A DNA stretch of 64,000 bases from Octopus vulgaris (Eukaryota). Shown piece by piece: positions 30,001-52,548 of this stretch. Made by a program: the position numbers. Location of the stretch: assembly GCA_951406725.2 (NCBI GenBank), contig OX597825.1:80104001-80168000 (forward strand), in the 5' to 3' direction. The stretch's first letter is position 1, and each line of letters starts with the position of its first letter.

Positions 30001-33000
30001 ACCTGACGGGGAAAGTAAATAACTTTTTGTTCTGTTTCTCATATAATTATGACTTTCATAGAATTACGATCCTCACGAATGATTTTTTCCCAATTGTTCA
30101 AGGTTTTGATCTCTTTTTGTTTGTTAGCTTATTCGGCACTGTCATGCTTTTAGCTAAAAGCATGACAGTGCCGCTTATTCTTCATAAGTATGAGACATCT
30201 GTTCCTAAACTGCTATTTTATTTATGATAGGGTCGGTCCTAGAAAATATACGACATCCTCCAAGTGTCGGATGTGTGCCATGCGCATCCACCCCTTTCTG
30301 ATTAAAAAAAAATTGTCTACAAAATCCCACGTGGCGACCTTTCCGTCGATTTTCGTAAAAAACTTCTTTTTTTTTTACATATGGGCTTGCGGGAACTTTT
30401 GAAGTAATGAGAGCGAAAGAGACTAAGAGAAAGCGATTTTATGACGAGGGAAGTTCTTTTGAAGTTACCGTGCATGGGAGCATTGATGGACATGTGTGTG
30501 TGCGTGTGTTTGATGGGGTGTGGGAGACAGACAGTATGTTGTGTAAGTGAAGTGCTTCTGTTAGTGTGTGTGAAGAGACAGAGAGAGTAATGTGTGAAAG
30601 AGAGAGATAACTGAAAAACGAAGACACACATACATGCATACAATGTGATAATGTTCCAATAATCATTCAGGTTTTGGCTTCTGAATGAGACCCGTGTTCA
30701 AAAATAGTCCTAAAAAGGTCAAGATCAAGGATATTGTCGGCTGAGAGGACAACTTTGGCCACTGACTGAACCTGCTTTGTGGCGAAAGTCCATCGCCCTG
30801 GCCCCGAACTTGGTGTTCTTCTGCCATCTTGTCCATTGCCTTTGTAGCATACTTTTTCGTGAAGTCAATCAGAAAGAAGTCAAGTGGTTGCTTTGTCCTC
30901 TGAAGGTTGATCAACAATCCCCAACCAGGGACCAACACCTTGCCCTTCACCTTCATCGCTACTACTGTCCTCATTGTCATGTTCACATAATTCACCTTCA
31001 TCATTGCTGCTTTCAATGTGCTCAAAGTTCACCGAAAAAGTCACCTTCTGACAGCATATACATGCCTGAAACATCACTCTTGTCACCATAATCACTATTA
31101 GAGTCAAGGCCAGGATCATGGAATCACTCAACTGAAAATATCAAGCTTTGGAGATCGTAGAAGCAAGCATAGCACAGAATACGAACTCACGACAAATGCT
31201 AAATCTTCATGCACACAAAAATATAGGGAATTGTTGTATTCATTTGGAAAGAGATTGCATGATGAATAATTAAGCCATCTTTCGGCTGAAATTTAATGTT
31301 GTACAATTTTTGAAATTCTGATAATCTCTTTCCAATTAAGAATTATGGTAAGTTAATTGACTATTTGAATCTGAATTTTTGTTCTTTTTATTTCAATAAA
31401 ACGGGTGGGTGTTCTTGGCTCGCTTTGCTTCGATCATTTTCAAAGAATCGGTTTTTATATTTTGTCACAAATTAGATACTTGTAACTAGTAACAGCAGGG
31501 AGGCCTAAGTCATTTTCTTTCACTAGTTAAGATATACTACTTATACACAGAGCAGGGTTTAATATGGTGTCTAGTCTTAGATCTTGTGACTTCATATATT
31601 TTTGTATTATTTATTTTGCAGATAGTTTCTATAACACTCTTACTACTTGTGATTTGCAGCTATGTAATCCTATCATATGGTTCTTCTTTTGTGTTCAATA
31701 AATTACAGTTTTTTTGGTTTTTTTGAAAATCAATAATATTGTGGCCTGTCAACCTGTGCCTGATGGCCACAATCATGGCCTGTCACACTTAATGTGTTAA
31801 AGTCGACACTGCTCCGCTAAACGCAGAAAATTTCTGTCTCACTATCAGCCAAAATGCACAAATTTTTTTATTTTTAAACCTCTGTAACTTTTTCTTCTAA
31901 TTTTTTTCTCCAAAGCATCATACCTTCATAGCAATTAGACTGAAAGACTTTATTATACCTGATTTTCAGATCTTTTACTGCCTTTTAAAACATGTATACT
32001 TTGTGAATGAAAAATCTATAGTCATTCAAGCAACGCTAACAATACAAAGGTTAGCCAGAAAAACACGAGTGAACTATATAATTCCAACAGAACATAATGC
32101 TTGTGCTCTATTACCAAAAGAGGGAACAGGAAGACAAACTACAAAACCCTTCAGGTAGATGGCCCTTCTCGACCTGTAGGAAAGGTGTAGGTAGAAACTC
32201 TATAAGATGTACCCAGTGTAAGCTATGGACACATAAGAGGTGCAGCAATATCAAAGGAAGGCTAACTGGGAAGACAGTTTTGTATGTGGCAAATGCTCAG
32301 ATGCTATAAACACTGAAAATGTGCAGAGAACAGCTTCTGTCACATTCCAGGGAGAAAAACTTGAAGTAGTTGATAGCTTCTGTAACTTAATGGACCAAGT
32401 AAATAGCAGGGGTGGATGCTCTGAAAGTGTAGCTTCTAGAATAAGAATAGCCTGAGCAAAGTTCAGAGAGATGCTACCTCTGCTGGTGACTTGGTCCCCT
32501 AGGTAACGGAAGCTATCAACTACTTGTAGTTTTTCTCCCAGGAATGTGACAGAAGCTGTTCTCTGCACATTTTCAGTGTTTATAGCATCTGAGCATTTGC
32601 CACATACAAAACTGTCTTCCCAGTTAGCTTTCCTTTGATATTGCTGCACCTCTTATGTGTCCATAGCTTACACTGGGTACATCTTATAGTGAAAAACTTT
32701 TTGTACTGCTTCTCATATAATTGTCTTTCATAGAATTACGACCATGACGAAAGATTTTTTTTCCCCAATTGTTCAAGGTTTTGCTGTGTTTTTGTTACAA
32801 CACCTTGCCCTTCCCCTTCACTGCTGCTTTCAATGTGCTCAAAGTTTACCGAAAAGTCACCCTCTGACAGCATATACATGCCTGAAACATCACTCTTGTC
32901 ACCATAATCACTATTACTCAAGGCCAGGATCCATGGAATCACTCAAATGCAAAATAAACTGAATTGTTGTATTCATTTGGAAAGAGATTGCATGATGAAT

Positions 33001-50100: not shown

Positions 50101-52548
50101 ACATATATATTGATATGTGTGTATATATACATATATGTGTATATATACATATACATATATGTGTATATATACATATACTTATATGTGTATATATGTATGT
50201 ACATATACATATGTACAATTTCATATATATATGTATACTAGTACTATTGCTTGGCACAACGGGGATTTCAGGGGAGAGTTTCAGGGAGTCGCTGACGATG
50301 TATCATGATGATCTAAAATTTGGTTAAAGTGATTCAAACTGCAGACTCAACGCAAAATGGTCACATTTAATTCAAAGCGTTAAAAATGTTATGAAAACAA
50401 TTGGTATGCCTTCACAAAGTTCAAACGATTAATACGAAAAAACCCTCCAGGCTACGTCTCGAAAATTCATTTCTTTGCCGAATTTCTACAATGTTTACAG
50501 CGATTCGTTTTTACATCTTGATTTTTTTTTTTTTTTCATGCAATTTACGCATGCTTGCACGCGTGGTGAACACAGTTCATGTCAAACAGCTGACTGAGTA
50601 AAGTTCACTATTCAATGCATGGGATAAGGCCTAAACAAACACATCAATGTTTCACTTGCAAGATGAATTTCGGAACAGAAATAGCGCAGTTCAATTTTCA
50701 TTCGCCTAAACTTTAAGTGACCCATTTTTGGTGGTTCTACAATTCGTTGGCTAGGAGGAGGTGTGCCAGGAAGTTAAGCACACAGATACACACACAGACA
50801 CACAAGTTGAGTTTTATATATATAGATATGTATGTTGTTTGTGTGTGTGTATATCATCATCATCGTTTAGCGTCCGCTTTCCATGCTGGCATGGGTTGGA
50901 CGGTGCAACTGGGGTCTGGGAAGCCAGAAGGCTGCACCAGACCCAGTCTGATCTGGCAATGTTTCTACGGCTGGATGCCCTTCCTAACGCCAACCACTCC
51001 ATGAGTGTAGTGGGTGCTTTTTACGTGCCAGACGAGGCTGGCAAACGGCCACGATCGGATGGTGCCTTTTACATGCCACTGGCACGTATATATATAGTGT
51101 CTTCTAAAATAGGCTCGGGCTGACCAAAGCCTTGAGAGTGGATTTGGTAGACGGAAACTGAAAGAAGCCCATCGTATATATATATCATCATCATCATCAT
51201 CATCGTTTATGATGATGATGATATATATATATGTGTGTGTATGGTTTGTGCCCCCAACATCGCTTGACAATCGATGCTGGTGTATTTACATCCCTATAAC
51301 TTAGCGCTTCGGCAAAAGAGAACGATAGAATAAGGACTAGGCTTACAAAAAATAAGTCCTGGGGTCGATATGCTCGATTAAAGGCGGTGCTCCAGCACCT
51401 ATTCAGATTCCACCTGTCTAACACCCGTGGACATGTTTACAAAGTCAGACAACAGCACAGCTCCCATGACTTCAGGAAACATTTTTTCACACTGAGAGTT
51501 GCTGAAGCATGGAACAAACTGCCGGCATCAGTTGTTAGTTGTCTGAGCACTGCATCCTTCAAAATTTCCATGCTTTCTGAGATTCGCCAACACTACACCT
51601 GATTTTCTGCCCTCCATACACACGCAAGCATGTATCTGACTCGTACACTGTTCGCTTCCCAGACATTTGTACATTACTGCATATGCTTTATACGCACTGA
51701 CTGACAAGTTGTGGTGCACCTGAGCACTGTATACAATAATTTCATTATTATTTATTTTATTACATTTTTACAAGTAAATGTTATCAGGAATTGTATTAAA
51801 AAATTGTTAAAGTATTTTGTGTTTTGTCGAGGTATGAGCAATTTATTGCTCATAAGCTTTAAGATCAAGATCTAATATGGAACGCCTCCCCACCACCGGG
51901 TCATGTGGACCTTGGTTGAGAACTGCTGCATTGAATGATGATGATGATGATAGAATCCTACTACTATCTTCAATAGTACAGGAAGCAATGATATGGCTGT
52001 CTGTGATAAGCACCGATGCTTGTTTAAACTGTTGCTTGATTAGCCAAAGCTTATCAAGAACCAAATAACAAGAAATGTATTTTCATCATATGATTTCTGT
52101 TTTAACTGCTTCAATATTCTAAAGAAGGCCCTTCCCAACACCAACCACCTTACAGAGTGGACATAGCCAATGCTCCAAAATGAATTACTTCTGGATCTTA
52201 TTGAATATTTTTTCACTTTCAGAAAATGGCTCTGAAAGGATTGACAGTTTTGGAGTTTGCTGGCCTGGCACCAGCACCATTCTGTGGAATGATTATGGCA
52301 GATTTTGGAGCCAGAGTGATTAGAATAGACCGTGTGAGTAAATTTATTTCCTAGTTTTTGTTTATTTTATTTATTAACTTTTTTTTTTTGTACACTTTTA
52401 ATTGTCTTTGCATCCATTTTGGAAAACGTGGGGGTGGGGTGAGGAAGGGGACACTCACCAATCGAAGTGAACTCAATCCTTGCCTGAGAGGAAAGTCAAT
52501 GTTGATCCTGGAGGCGTTTGAACTCATAATACAGAGAACTAGAACACC

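What the first reader, a model, noticed from the sequence alone, without database searches (positions are those of the whole stretch)
30020..51126. 21-kb amplified mosaic of transposon fragments and hairpins in the inferred AMACR first intron: candidate small-RNA / dsRNA-producing locus
Seen: two nested tandem arrays made almost entirely of TE pieces (piggyBac, RTE LINE, Helitron, SINE), starting ~100 bp after a donor site at a housekeeping bidirectional promoter. They include four 490-bp fold-backs and 11 copies of one piggyBac fragment. Established: piRNA clusters and hpRNA/endo-siRNA loci are tandemly amplified antisense or inverted TE fragments, and cephalopods have extensive ADAR editing of dsRNA. 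Inference: this could be a young, intron-hosted TE-silencing or dsRNA cassette that uses the RPS17/AMACR promoter and targets families present elsewhere in this window. Neutral repeat expansion is an equally valid null.
Basis: partly seen in the sequence, partly recalled or inferred. Interest (0 to 1): 0.75.

Follow-up and report, generated by a model that had tools for sequence, protein, structure and literature searches.

The report
Amplified snoRNA genes amid transposon debris
A 20-kb block of repeated DNA upstream of the coding exons of an octopus housekeeping gene carries eleven copies of a small nucleolar RNA gene of the kind that guides ribosomal RNA methylation, with transposon fragments and long hairpins as passengers, so it looks like an amplified snoRNA cluster, not a transposon-silencing locus.

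Summary
The repeat structure is real. Array A (30879-39896) is a mosaic and array B (39901-51127) has four 2.6-3.0 kb units. There are 11 copies of one module (P) and four 490-bp fold-backs. They lie between RPS17 (- strand) and the first coding exon of AMACR (+ strand; closest named proteins are from Octopus sinensis).

About 55% of the bases trace to a piggyBac remnant, one LINE family and a SINE-like repeat. Helitron found no support.

It has a C box, D' and D boxes and an 11-13 bp terminal stem. Its guide is identical to that of fly snoMe28S-Am982, human SNORD96 and nematode ceN109, and it is complementary to a universal 28S rRNA motif. Ten of the 11 copies are identical.

A second snoRNA, SNORD46-like, sits at 39837-39917.

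Annotated O. sinensis AMACR isoforms use a 78-nt exon present once in each B unit, and apparently a splice donor in P. This implies + strand transcription.

Best reading: a young tandem amplification of a snoRNA-bearing intron module, with TE pieces and LINE-derived hairpins as hitch-hikers. piRNA or hpRNA function is untested and disfavoured. No RNA data could be consulted.

The parts
29365..29541 (-). RPS17 coding exon 2. The one-codon exon 1 (ATG|gtgag) lies at about 29729-29731 on the - strand.
   Evidence: Pfam Ribosomal_S17e, E 5.7e-27. The ATG exon was read directly.
29830..29923 (+). Putative non-coding first exon of the + strand host transcript (AMACR), ending at donor AAAG|GTAAAA. 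The start coordinate is approximate.
   Evidence: Sequence read. The exon is inferred, not verified by RNA data.
30666..31125 (-). Remnant of the N-terminal coding region of a piggyBac transposase. Only this first copy keeps the start of the DDE domain (30675-30875).
   Evidence: phmmer hits P0004 (E 9.3e-13) and P0005 (E 2.1e-8). Both carry Pfam DDE_Tnp_1_7. Translation shown.
30879..39896 (+). Array A, a mosaic of modules: P Q H Pd T / P H' Pd T / P H' / P Q H / P Q' X T.
39901..51127 (+). Array B, four tandem units. Each unit runs: 194 bp, P, LINE ORF2 tail, SINE-like (+), 78-nt exon, TA/TG microsatellite, inverted SINE-like half.
31246..31333 (+). Box C/D snoRNA-A, copy 1 (snoMe28S-Am982-like guide).
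32979..33066 (+). snoRNA-A, copy 2.
33659..33746 (+). snoRNA-A, copy 3.
35002..35089 (+). snoRNA-A, copy 4.
35681..35768 (+). snoRNA-A, copy 5.
37120..37207 (+). snoRNA-A, copy 6.
38950..39037 (+). snoRNA-A, copy 7.
40400..40487 (+). snoRNA-A, copy 8 (array B unit 1).
43046..43133 (+). snoRNA-A, copy 9 (unit 2). It is the only copy with a substitution, G>T upstream of the D box.
45844..45931 (+). snoRNA-A, copy 10 (unit 3).
48609..48696 (+). snoRNA-A, copy 11 (unit 4).
39837..39917 (+). Box C/D snoRNA-B, SNORD46-like and intact: C box, D box, 6-8 bp terminal stem and a 12-nt guide identical to the SNORD46 consensus.
   Evidence: The guide's target motif is in 28S (PMC4370867 passage).
33221..33287 (+). 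Truncated snoRNA-B copy. The D box and the end of the guide are lost at the T-to-P duplication joint.
   Evidence: Alignment A3.
35244..35310 (+). Truncated snoRNA-B copy with the same joint.
   Evidence: Alignment A3.
32200..32689 (.). Fold-back H1, an inverted duplication of LINE ORF2 (PHD-finger region, about aa 195-298 of P0002). It has a 149-bp uninterrupted helix.
34167..34656 (.). Fold-back H2, flipped relative to H1.
36189..36678 (.). Fold-back H3. Its fold statistics are identical to H2's.
38074..38563 (.). Fold-back H4, in the same orientation as H1.
41485..41562 (+). 78-nt cassette exon, copy 1 (acceptor ..taatcag|GTC, donor GGAA|GTAAGA). It encodes aa 2-27 of O. sinensis AMACR isoform X2.
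   Evidence: tblastn at 100% identity; alignment A2.
44131..44208 (+). Cassette exon, copy 2.
46929..47006 (+). Cassette exon, copy 3.
49699..49776 (+). Cassette exon, copy 4.
31345..31353 (+). Consensus donor ATG|GTAAGT, 14 nt after snoRNA-A. The same site occurs at 33758, 35780, 37219, 39049 and 40499, so in 6 of 11 P copies. Three B copies read GTCAGT there, and the two deleted copies lack the site.
40525..40848 (+). LINE ORF2 C-terminal tail (aa 337-444 of P0002). It repeats at 43171-43494, 45969-46292 and 48734-49057.
41006..41378 (+). SINE-like interspersed repeat. It repeats at 43658-44024, 46456-46822 and 49220-49592. Dispersed relatives occur elsewhere in the window.
42267..42505 (-). 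Inverted 3' half of the SINE-like repeat. It repeats at 45070-45305, 47834-48069 and 50850-51085. With the upstream copy it brackets the cassette exon.
52223..52333 (+). AMACR exon holding the conserved start codon (ATG at 52226), preceded by the acceptor ttttcactttcag.

Best explanation
The block is a snoRNA host region in which a snoRNA-bearing module has been tandemly amplified. Transposon fragments and LINE-derived hairpins were carried along as passengers.

Shown by the sequence:
- Eleven + strand copies of an 88-nt canonical box C/D snoRNA, snoRNA-A.
- Its guide CCAUCUUUCGG sits directly 5' of the D' box and is complementary to a universal 28S rRNA motif.
- One intact and two truncated copies of a second snoRNA, snoRNA-B, which is SNORD46-like.
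- All lie between the RPS17/AMACR divergent promoter and the AMACR start-codon exon.

Inferred history:
- An intron holding the two snoRNA genes acquired a piggyBac insertion next to snoRNA-A, LINE fragments (one of them an inverted self-duplicate) and SINE-like copies.
- A non-homologous tandem duplication followed, with 2-3 bp microhomology at the joints. One joint cuts through snoRNA-B.
- Unequal recombination between P copies then raised snoRNA-A to 11 copies.

Inferred mechanism, from established snoRNA biology:
- The + strand pre-mRNA is transcribed from the housekeeping promoter or from starts inside the array.
- Snu13, Nop56, Nop58 and fibrillarin assemble on the C/D motif. The long terminal stem helps, because the copies lie about 1 kb from the nearest acceptor.
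- Exonucleases trim the spliced-out intron down to the snoRNA.
- snoRNA-A would direct 2'-O-methylation of the middle A of 28S CCGA[A]AG. snoRNA-B would direct it to the second A of GUA[A]CUAUGAC.

Side effects:
- Splice sites in P and in the B unit are used as alternative 5' exons of AMACR.
- The fold-backs would form long dsRNA, and so likely ADAR substrates, if they are transcribed.

Whether the extra copies are selected for dosage or are neutral is open.
For: snoRNA-A:
- A permissive Rfam scan of 29700-52400 gives the same C/D hits in all 11 P copies: snoMe28S-Am982 at 37.2 bits, E 0.004, and SNORD96 at 34.6 bits.
- The alignments show the C box AUGAUGA, the D' and D boxes CUGA, and a guide identical to the consensus of snoMe28S-Am982, SNORD96 and ceN109.
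- The complement of the guide lies inside a broad-taxon 28S primer (PMC11044067, passage read).
- A box-plus-stem scan finds 12 sites in the window, all on the + strand and all in the array: 11 with 12-13 bp stems and one with 8 bp. First-order Markov simulations of 64 kb give a mean of 0.005 sites; 1 of 200 simulations had any.
- The fold is -23.7 kcal/mol, z = -3.1, and 0 of 200 shuffles fold as well.
- Ten of 11 copies are identical.

Controls: no C/D-like hit at E <= 0.05 in 1-30800, and none at E <= 0.1 in 51100-64000.

snoRNA-B: the SNORD46 hit at 39837-39917 shares a 12-nt guide with the consensus. The guide's target motif is in the 28S consensus printed in PMC4370867 (passage read).

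Host context:
- RPS17 and AMACR are identified.
- O. sinensis AMACR isoforms X2 and X3 have N-terminal extensions that map at 100% identity to all four B units.
- X2's initial M followed by VSTD fits only the ATG|GTAAGT donor in P.
- Three of the four intervals upstream of cassette exons hold exactly one snoRNA-A copy.

Amplification by DNA duplication:
- Junctions and truncation points are identical across copies.
- The T-to-P joint lies inside snoRNA-B.
- The P copies are recombinant mosaics.
Against: - Neither snoRNA reaches its Rfam gathering score (37.2 against 49; 25.8 against 40), and the default Rfam scan reports nothing.
- No RNA data, no octopus 28S sequence and no other cephalopod genome could be consulted. 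Expression, processing and the target pairing in this species are therefore unverified.
- The conservation signal is weak: 1 of 88 snoRNA columns varies against 10 of 148 other columns across the 11 copies (one-sided Fisher p = 0.041), and 1 of 88 against 16 of 279 across the 9 full copies (p = 0.056).
- In array B the LINE tail is just as invariant (1 of 322 columns), as is the exon region (0 of 244). Low variation therefore does not single out the snoRNA.
- Eight snoRNA-A copies plus snoRNA-B share one interval upstream of the first cassette exon. This differs from the one-snoRNA-per-intron layout usual in animals.
- The snoRNA ends only 14 nt before the P donor, so it would be exonic in X2-type transcripts.
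- The isoforms are predicted models, and I could not see their RNA support.
- Non-coding exon 1 at about 29.8 kb is inferred only.
Confidence: 0.65

Rival explanations
1. Neutral segmental amplification of a TE mosaic. The block is a young macrosatellite made by tandem duplication and unequal crossing-over. The snoRNA copies are carried along and add nothing: one copy, or a copy elsewhere in the genome, does the work, or the copies here are silent pseudogenes.
For: - Microhomology joints and recombinant P copies.
- One joint destroyed snoRNA-B twice.
- Units differ by only 1-4%.
- Low variation is not specific to the snoRNA, and the conservation test is borderline.
- TE-linked tandem repeats are common in molluscs (PMC7492417 and PMC5139131, search listing and abstracts only).
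Against: - P, the only module present in every unit of both arrays, is the one that carries the snoRNA. The two internally deleted P copies keep the snoRNA intact.
- Ten of 11 copies are identical.
- Two different conserved rRNA guides sit on the same strand of the same host region.
Confidence: 0.25
2. One reading: an intron-hosted piRNA cluster, or an hpRNA/endo-siRNA or dsRNA cassette, that silences the TE families represented in it.
For: - Four fold-backs with helices up to 149 bp.
- Inverted SINE-like pairs in every B unit.
- The piggyBac piece is antisense to the host strand.
- Isoform models imply + strand transcription.
- piRNAs are abundant in mollusc soma and gonad (PMC6128900 and PMC12479628, passages read).
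Against: - Only three TE families are present, each from a single ancestral insertion that was then copied.
- There is no antisense bias among the independent insertions.
- No exact match of 24 nt or more to piggyBac or LINE copies elsewhere in the window.
- No evidence of an endo-siRNA pathway in molluscs, O. bimaculoides included (PMC12479628).
- piRNA clusters cover only 0.27% of a snail genome (PMC6128900), so the prior is low.
- Long dsRNA-forming loci are common in octopus (PMC5625713).
Confidence: 0.06
3. Assembly artefact: a single unit, or fewer units, inflated by mis-assembly of reads or haplotypes.
For: Near-identical repeats of 2-3 kb are hard to assemble. The two middle A units are 99.2% identical.
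Against: - Units differ by substitutions, indels and microsatellite lengths (83 variable columns and many gapped columns).
- The A units have different module content.
- The fold-backs occur in two orientations.
- No N runs in the window.
Confidence: 0.05

Closest known systems
Rfam RF00535 snoMe28S-Am982 (Drosophila box C/D snoRNA); also RF00055 SNORD96 and RF01613 ceN109
   Same: C, D' and D boxes, overall length, and an identical guide core CCAUCUUUCG(G) directly 5' of D'. The fifth-nucleotide rule then predicts the same 28S adenosine as for snoMe28S-Am982.
   Different: The score is below the family's gathering threshold (37.2 against 49 bits). The C' box and the second guide differ. Here there are 11 tandem copies. 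The target site in octopus 28S was not checked.
Rfam RF00218 SNORD46 (U46)
   Same: C and D boxes, a terminal stem, and a 12-nt guide UGUCAUAGUUAC identical to the consensus. The target motif is in 28S.
   Different: 25.8 bits against a threshold of 40, and a shorter internal region. There is one intact copy and two copies truncated by the duplication joint.
Mammalian tandem box C/D snoRNA arrays with repeated host exons (SNORD116, SNORD115, SNORD113/114). Recalled, not looked up.
   Same: Kilobase-scale tandem units, each with one snoRNA copy and one short exon with working splice sites, as in array B.
   Different: Those snoRNAs are orphans in imprinted, brain-expressed non-coding hosts with tens of copies. 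Here the guides are canonical rRNA guides. The host runs into a protein-coding gene, array A has no demonstrated exons, and the units are built largely of TE debris.
Multi-snoRNA host genes driven by ribosomal-protein-type promoters (GAS5, SNHG1, UHG; RP-gene introns). Recalled.
   Same: Different rRNA-guide snoRNAs on the sense strand of introns, downstream of a housekeeping promoter shared with an RP gene.
   Different: Those hosts carry one different snoRNA per intron. Here one snoRNA is amplified, and many copies share an interval.
piRNA clusters and Drosophila-type hpRNA loci
   Same: TE-derived content, long inverted repeats, and possible transcription from a host promoter.
   Different: No diversity of independently captured TEs, no antisense bias, and no siRNA pathway known in molluscs. 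Small RNAs were not tested.
TE-derived tandem repeats or macrosatellites in molluscs (for example Helentron-carried arrays in oyster; PMC7492417, abstract only)
   Same: Tandem arrays whose monomers contain TE sequence.
   Different: The units here are 2-3 kb composites of several TE families plus snoRNA genes and an exon. No Helitron or Helentron signature was found.

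Membership tests
Box C/D snoRNA (class) | C box RUGAUGA near the 5' end and D box CUGA near the 3' end | tested here: met
   AUGAUGA and CUGA are present in all 11 snoRNA-A copies and in snoRNA-B.
Box C/D snoRNA (class) | Terminal stem that brings the C and D boxes together | tested here: met
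   12-13 bp in snoRNA-A and 8 bp in snoRNA-B. Expected by chance: 0.005 sites per 64 kb. Fold z = -3.1.
Box C/D snoRNA (class) | Antisense element of at least 10 nt, complementary to rRNA, abutting the D' or D box | tested here: met
   An 11-nt guide against the 28S motif in a universal primer, and an 11-nt guide against the 28S consensus near the R2 insertion site. The test used other animals' 28S; the octopus 28S was not available.
Box C/D snoRNA (class) | Sense-strand intronic position in a Pol II host gene (the animal norm) | tested here: inconclusive
   All copies are on the + strand, between an inferred exon 1 (donor at 29923) and the acceptor at 52222. Annotated isoforms splice within the array. 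No RNA data.
Box C/D snoRNA (class) | Stable RNA of about 70-100 nt bound by fibrillarin, Nop56, Nop58 and Snu13; target methylated | not testable with these tools
   Needs RNA-seq, immunoprecipitation and RiboMeth-seq.
Rfam RF00535 snoMe28S-Am982 | Covariance-model score at or above the gathering threshold (49 bits) | tested here: not met
   37.2 bits. The guide and boxes align, but the rest diverges. I therefore call it 'like' the family and do not file it as a member.
Rfam RF00218 SNORD46 | Covariance-model score at or above the gathering threshold (40 bits) | tested here: not met
   25.8 bits, although the 12-nt guide, D box and stem are identical to the consensus.
Tandem snoRNA array with repeated host exons (SNORD116 type) | Each unit carries one snoRNA and one exon, so that each copy has its own intron | tested here: inconclusive
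   In array B, 3 of the 4 intervals upstream of cassette exons hold exactly one copy. The first interval holds 8 copies plus snoRNA-B. Serial use of the four exons is not shown.
piRNA cluster | TE fragments from many independent insertions, mostly antisense to the cluster transcript | tested here: not met
   Three TE families, each from one ancestral insertion that was then copied. Orientations are mixed.
piRNA cluster | Dense 24-31 nt 1U small RNAs with a ping-pong signature | not testable with these tools
   No small-RNA data reachable.
hpRNA / endo-siRNA locus | Long, near-perfect inverted repeat able to fold as one hairpin | tested here: met
   Four fold-backs at -372 to -396 kcal/mol on the + strand, with helices up to 149 bp.
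hpRNA / endo-siRNA locus | Dicer-dependent 21-23 nt duplexes, and a dedicated siRNA pathway in the lineage | not testable with these tools
   Not testable here. The literature reports no evidence of such a pathway in molluscs, O. bimaculoides included (PMC12479628, passages read).
piggyBac-derived sequence (module P) | Homology to a DDE_Tnp_1_7 transposase | tested here: inconclusive
   Met for 30675-30875, just left of P copy 1. The amplified P itself has no hit (the Atlas gave only a lead at 0.83). P is assigned by contiguity of the reading frame in copy 1. No TTAA-flanked terminus was identified.
Helitron | Rep or helicase domains, or 5'-TC ... CTRR-3' ends with a 3' hairpin | tested here: not met
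   No Helitron_like_N or PIF1 hit in any ORF scanned. The ends of module Q do not fit the pattern. Non-autonomous Helitrons cannot be excluded.

The most novel reading that the evidence does not exclude
A repeated snoRNA host gene caught at birth. TE debris supplied the splice sites: a consensus donor in the piggyBac-adjacent module, and a 78-nt exon bracketed by inverted SINE-like copies. Unequal recombination then multiplied a conserved 28S-methylation guide to 11 copies. This would produce, in a cephalopod, an architecture like the mammalian SNORD116/115 arrays, with copy number under dosage selection. The 150-bp LINE hairpins in the same precursor would act as ADAR-edited dsRNA that influences how the precursor is processed.
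Probability: 0.2. Interest if true: 0.6.

Novelty: new member of a known kind. Interest (0 to 1): 0.42.

Why it matters
The result changes what the locus is. What looked like a candidate TE-silencing cassette is most likely an amplified cluster of rRNA-modification guide genes.

If the copies are expressed, this would be a clear invertebrate example of a canonical rRNA-guide snoRNA expanded by tandem duplication, with host exons recruited from transposon debris. It would give a dated, sequence-resolved view of how repeated snoRNA host genes arise.

It also shows why TE-rich tandem arrays should be screened for snoRNAs before they are read as piRNA or hpRNA loci. And it predicts two specific 2'-O-methylated adenosines in octopus 28S rRNA, which can be tested directly.

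Tried and rejected
- Pfam on six-frame ORFs of at least 60 aa (105 ORFs, 150, 11 at E <= 10). Inside the arrays this gave only weak sub-threshold PHD-like hits in the fold-backs, later explained by the LINE's PHD finger, plus three other sub-threshold hit types I take as chance. There were no transposase, RT or Helitron domains.
- A word-index protein search with the P1 ORF found nothing. The Atlas gave only a 0.83 lead. The full phmmer search was needed to show piggyBac.
- The default Rfam scan and the tRNA scan found nothing.
- The many miRNA 'hits' in the permissive Rfam scans (mir-297, mir-3149, mir-466, mir-1277 and others) sit on TA/TG microsatellites. They also occur in the control region 1143-1531. 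I reject them as low-complexity artefacts.
- The MIR537 hit on fold-back 1 (52.5 bits against a threshold of 100) is a generic long hairpin.
- Selection on the snoRNA from copy-to-copy variation is borderline and is undermined by equally invariant LINE-tail and exon segments. I do not use it as evidence of function.
- A donor at the end of the SINE-like copy (ATG|GTGATG) as the source of isoform X2's first codon is rejected. It would give MMM, not M.
- Module Q as a Helitron is rejected. Q is a 445-bp indel flanked by T5-6 runs, more like a retroposon insertion or a precise deletion.
- Paper searches for 'Me28S-A982' and for SNORD18 with A1313 found 0 papers. A search for snoRNA + octopus + tandem found 13 papers; none of the 12 listed, judged by title and abstract start, describes such an array.
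Exons were searched one at a time, and database proteins were mapped onto the window.

Full report
**1. Context**

The window reads as octopus DNA.
- On the - strand, 29365-29541 encodes RPS17 (Pfam Ribosomal_S17e, E 5.7e-27). A one-codon first exon, ATG|gtgag, lies at about 29729-29731 (read).
- On the + strand, CoA-transferase III exons lie at 52226-52333, 53607-53867, 54467-54760, 58738-59004 and 63586-63990.
- One exon searched on its own finds alpha-methylacyl-CoA racemase of Octopus sinensis (97% and 87% identity), O. bimaculoides (92%) and Argonauta hians (68%).
- The start-codon exon begins at 52223, behind a strong acceptor (ttttcactttcag|AAAATG). An upstream 5' exon is therefore expected.
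It is plausible but unverified.
Exons were searched singly, and database proteins were mapped onto the window by tblastn.

**2.

Self-BLAST and module BLASTs resolve two adjacent arrays.

Array B (39901-51127):
- Exactly four units of 2646-3017 bp at 96-98% identity.
- 83 of 2616 ungapped columns vary, 33 of them in the microsatellite.
- The three internal junctions are identical, and a 2-bp AG microhomology links the unit start to the sequence after the array.

Array A (30879-39896) is a mosaic:
- P Q H Pd T / P H' Pd T / P H' / P Q H / P Q' X T.
- The outer P-Q-H blocks are 98.1% alike and the two inner units 99.2% alike.

Modules:
- P occurs 11 times, twice with the same internal deletion.
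- H contains a 490-bp fold-back. In copy 1 a 149-bp helix is interrupted by nothing but one G-U pair.
- Fold-backs 2 and 3 are inverted in place relative to 1 and 4. Recombination between the arms would produce this.

The tandem structure starts at 30879, not 30020.

**3. What the pieces are**

piggyBac:
- The ORF left of P copy 1 (30675-30875, - strand) matches two proteins that carry the piggyBac transposase domain.
- The amplified P continues that reading frame towards its N-terminus but has no hit of its own.

LINE:
- The B-unit ORF at 40468-40764 finds proteins with RT, a PHD finger and a conserved tail.
- tblastn maps aa 337-444 of that LINE to each B unit, + strand.
- It maps aa ~178-298 (+) and ~298-195 (-) to each fold-back. 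The hairpins are therefore an inverted self-duplication of a LINE ORF2 segment, formed once and then copied.
- The LINE clade (RTE or other) was not tested.

SINE-like repeat:
- One complete copy (+) and one inverted 3' half per B unit, with relatives at 74-88% identity at about ten other places in the window.

Totals: P, LINE and SINE-like sequence together cover 11061 of 20249 bases. Helitron found no support.

All copies of a module share the same truncation points and neighbours. The array therefore grew by copying one pre-assembled mosaic, not by repeated TE capture.

**4.

snoRNA-A:
- A permissive Rfam scan of 29700-52400 returned the same box C/D hits in every P copy, on the + strand.
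- The element is 88 nt. An 11-bp terminal stem (12-13 bp when short gaps next to the boxes are allowed) encloses the C box AUGAUGA, the guide, the D' box CUGA, a weak C', and the D box CUGA.
- The 11 nt directly 5' of D' (CCAUCUUUCGG) are identical to the guide in the consensus of Drosophila snoMe28S-Am982, human SNORD96 and nematode ceN109.
- Their complement lies within a 28S primer used across phyla (PMC11044067, passage read).
- By the fifth-nucleotide rule (established knowledge), the target is the middle A of CCGAAAG. That is the same position as for the Drosophila family, whose name gives 28S Am982.
- Ten of the 11 copies are identical. Copy 9 has one substitution.

snoRNA-B:
- A second C/D element at 39837-39917, at the T-to-B boundary, shares its 12-nt guide, D box and stem with SNORD46.
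- Its target motif is in the 28S consensus printed in PMC4370867 (passage read).
- The two T-to-P joints of array A cut through copies of this gene and removed the D box. This pins one duplication breakpoint inside it.

Controls:
- A box-plus-stem scan finds 12 sites in the window. All are on the + strand, and all are these elements. Markov simulations give 0.005 sites per 64 kb.
- Permissive Rfam scans of 1-30800 and 51100-64000 give no C/D hit.

Caveats:
- Both elements score below the Rfam gathering thresholds, and the default scan is empty.
- The octopus 28S was not available.

**5. Transcription and exonisation**

- O. sinensis AMACR isoforms X2 and X3 carry N-terminal extensions that map at 100% identity to all four B units.
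- X2 residues 2-27 are a 78-nt exon with a good acceptor and donor: 41485-41562 and three more copies. The four copies are identical, flanks included.
- X2 starts M-VSTD, so the upstream exon must end in ATG.
- In 29-52 kb, the only ATG|GTRWG donors are the ATG|GTAAGT sites in six P copies. There an in-frame stop lies 17 codons upstream of the terminal ATG with no other ATG in between, so it is the first start codon.
- This donor lies 14 nt after snoRNA-A.
- The models are predictions whose RNA support I could not see, but they imply + strand transcription through P and B.
- In array B, three of the four intervals upstream of cassette exons contain exactly one snoRNA-A copy, about 1 kb from the acceptor. 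The first interval contains eight copies plus snoRNA-B.

**6. Interpretation**

The most economical reading is a snoRNA host region whose snoRNA-bearing module was tandemly amplified.
- The duplications are non-homologous, with microhomology at the joints.
- Unequal exchange between P copies followed. The P copies are recombinant in their junctions and deletions.
- TE fragments and fold-backs came along as passengers.
- The long terminal stems fit snoRNAs that lie far from a 3' splice site (recalled from mammalian work, not checked).

Whether copy number is selected is open.
- The snoRNA varies less than other P columns (p = 0.041 and 0.056).
- The LINE tail and the exon region in array B are equally invariant.

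**7. The piRNA, hpRNA and dsRNA idea**

It cannot be tested without RNA data. What can be examined argues against it as the primary function.
- There are few independent TE insertions, and their orientations are mixed.
- There are no 24-mers shared with piggyBac or LINE copies elsewhere in the window.
- No endo-siRNA pathway has been detected in molluscs (PMC12479628).
- The prior for piRNA clusters is low (PMC6128900).
- dsRNA-forming loci are abundant in octopus (PMC5625713).
- If the fold-backs are transcribed they are very likely ADAR substrates. That would be a consequence of their structure and need not be their purpose.

**8. Novelty and limits**

- Tandem C/D snoRNA arrays with repeated host exons, and multi-snoRNA host genes, are known kinds (recalled). 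I found no description for cephalopods: 13 papers hold snoRNA + octopus + tandem, and none of the 12 listed, judged by title and abstract start, is relevant.
- I rate this as a new member of a known kind, of moderate interest.
- Unchecked: expression, rRNA methylation, copy number by long reads, other genomic copies, and orthologous loci.
- Supplements of the small-RNA papers, which may hold octopus data, were not read.

Noticed in passing
window 30134-30173: A perfect 40-bp palindrome, flanked on both sides by the direct repeat CTTATTC. It looks like a minimal MITE or a transposon footprint, and it lies about 210 bp after the putative exon 1 donor.
   Followed up: partly
window 30014-30121: An older copy (84-89% identity) of the right flank of the fold-back module H sits right after the putative exon 1 donor. 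This suggests an earlier round of duplication in the same region.
   Followed up: partly
window 41206-41378 and 42269-42441 (and the same positions in the other three B units): An inverted pair of SINE-like copies (85% complementary, about 890 nt apart) brackets each 78-nt cassette exon. This geometry is known (recalled) to favour back-splicing into circular RNA and ADAR editing.
   Followed up: no
window 24165-24866 (-): A 233-aa open frame that looks by eye like the acidic N-terminal part of a second, unrelated piggyBac transposase. It lies near the RPS17 gene. It has no Pfam hit and no nucleotide similarity to module P.
   Followed up: no
window 14281-14605, 25808-26267, 27239-27571, 28231-28778 (+): Further fragments of the same RT + PHD LINE family (24-79% protein identity to P0001/P0002). 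Those at 25.8-28.8 kb are antisense to RPS17.
   Followed up: partly
window 16579-16896 (-): A Tc1/mariner transposase HTH domain (Pfam HTH_Tnp_Tc3_2, E 1.7e-12).
   Followed up: no
window 17996-18259 (+): A weak endosulfine/ARPP-19-like match (Pfam Endosulfine, E 9.2e-5, below the cut-off). It may be an exon of a neighbouring gene.
   Followed up: no
window 54843-54999 and 55695-55851: A 157-nt inverted repeat pair (90% complementary, 695 nt apart) in an AMACR intron. Long inverted repeats are therefore not confined to the array.
   Followed up: no
window 31457-31901, 37331-37775, 39161-39452: Module Q is a 445-bp indel flanked by T5-6 runs. It is present in three A units and absent from two. 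This fits a retroposon-like insertion on the - strand or a precise deletion.
   Followed up: partly
window 63586-63990 (+): The last AMACR exon matches the C-terminal 135 residues of the O. sinensis protein (99% identity), which ends in SKL, a canonical peroxisomal targeting signal. The N-terminal extensions encoded by the array exons could alter the other, mitochondrial targeting end of the protein.
   Followed up: no
window 49828-50247: The TA/TG microsatellite of B unit 4 is expanded by about 200-400 bp relative to units 1-3. This accounts for that unit's greater length.
   Followed up: partly
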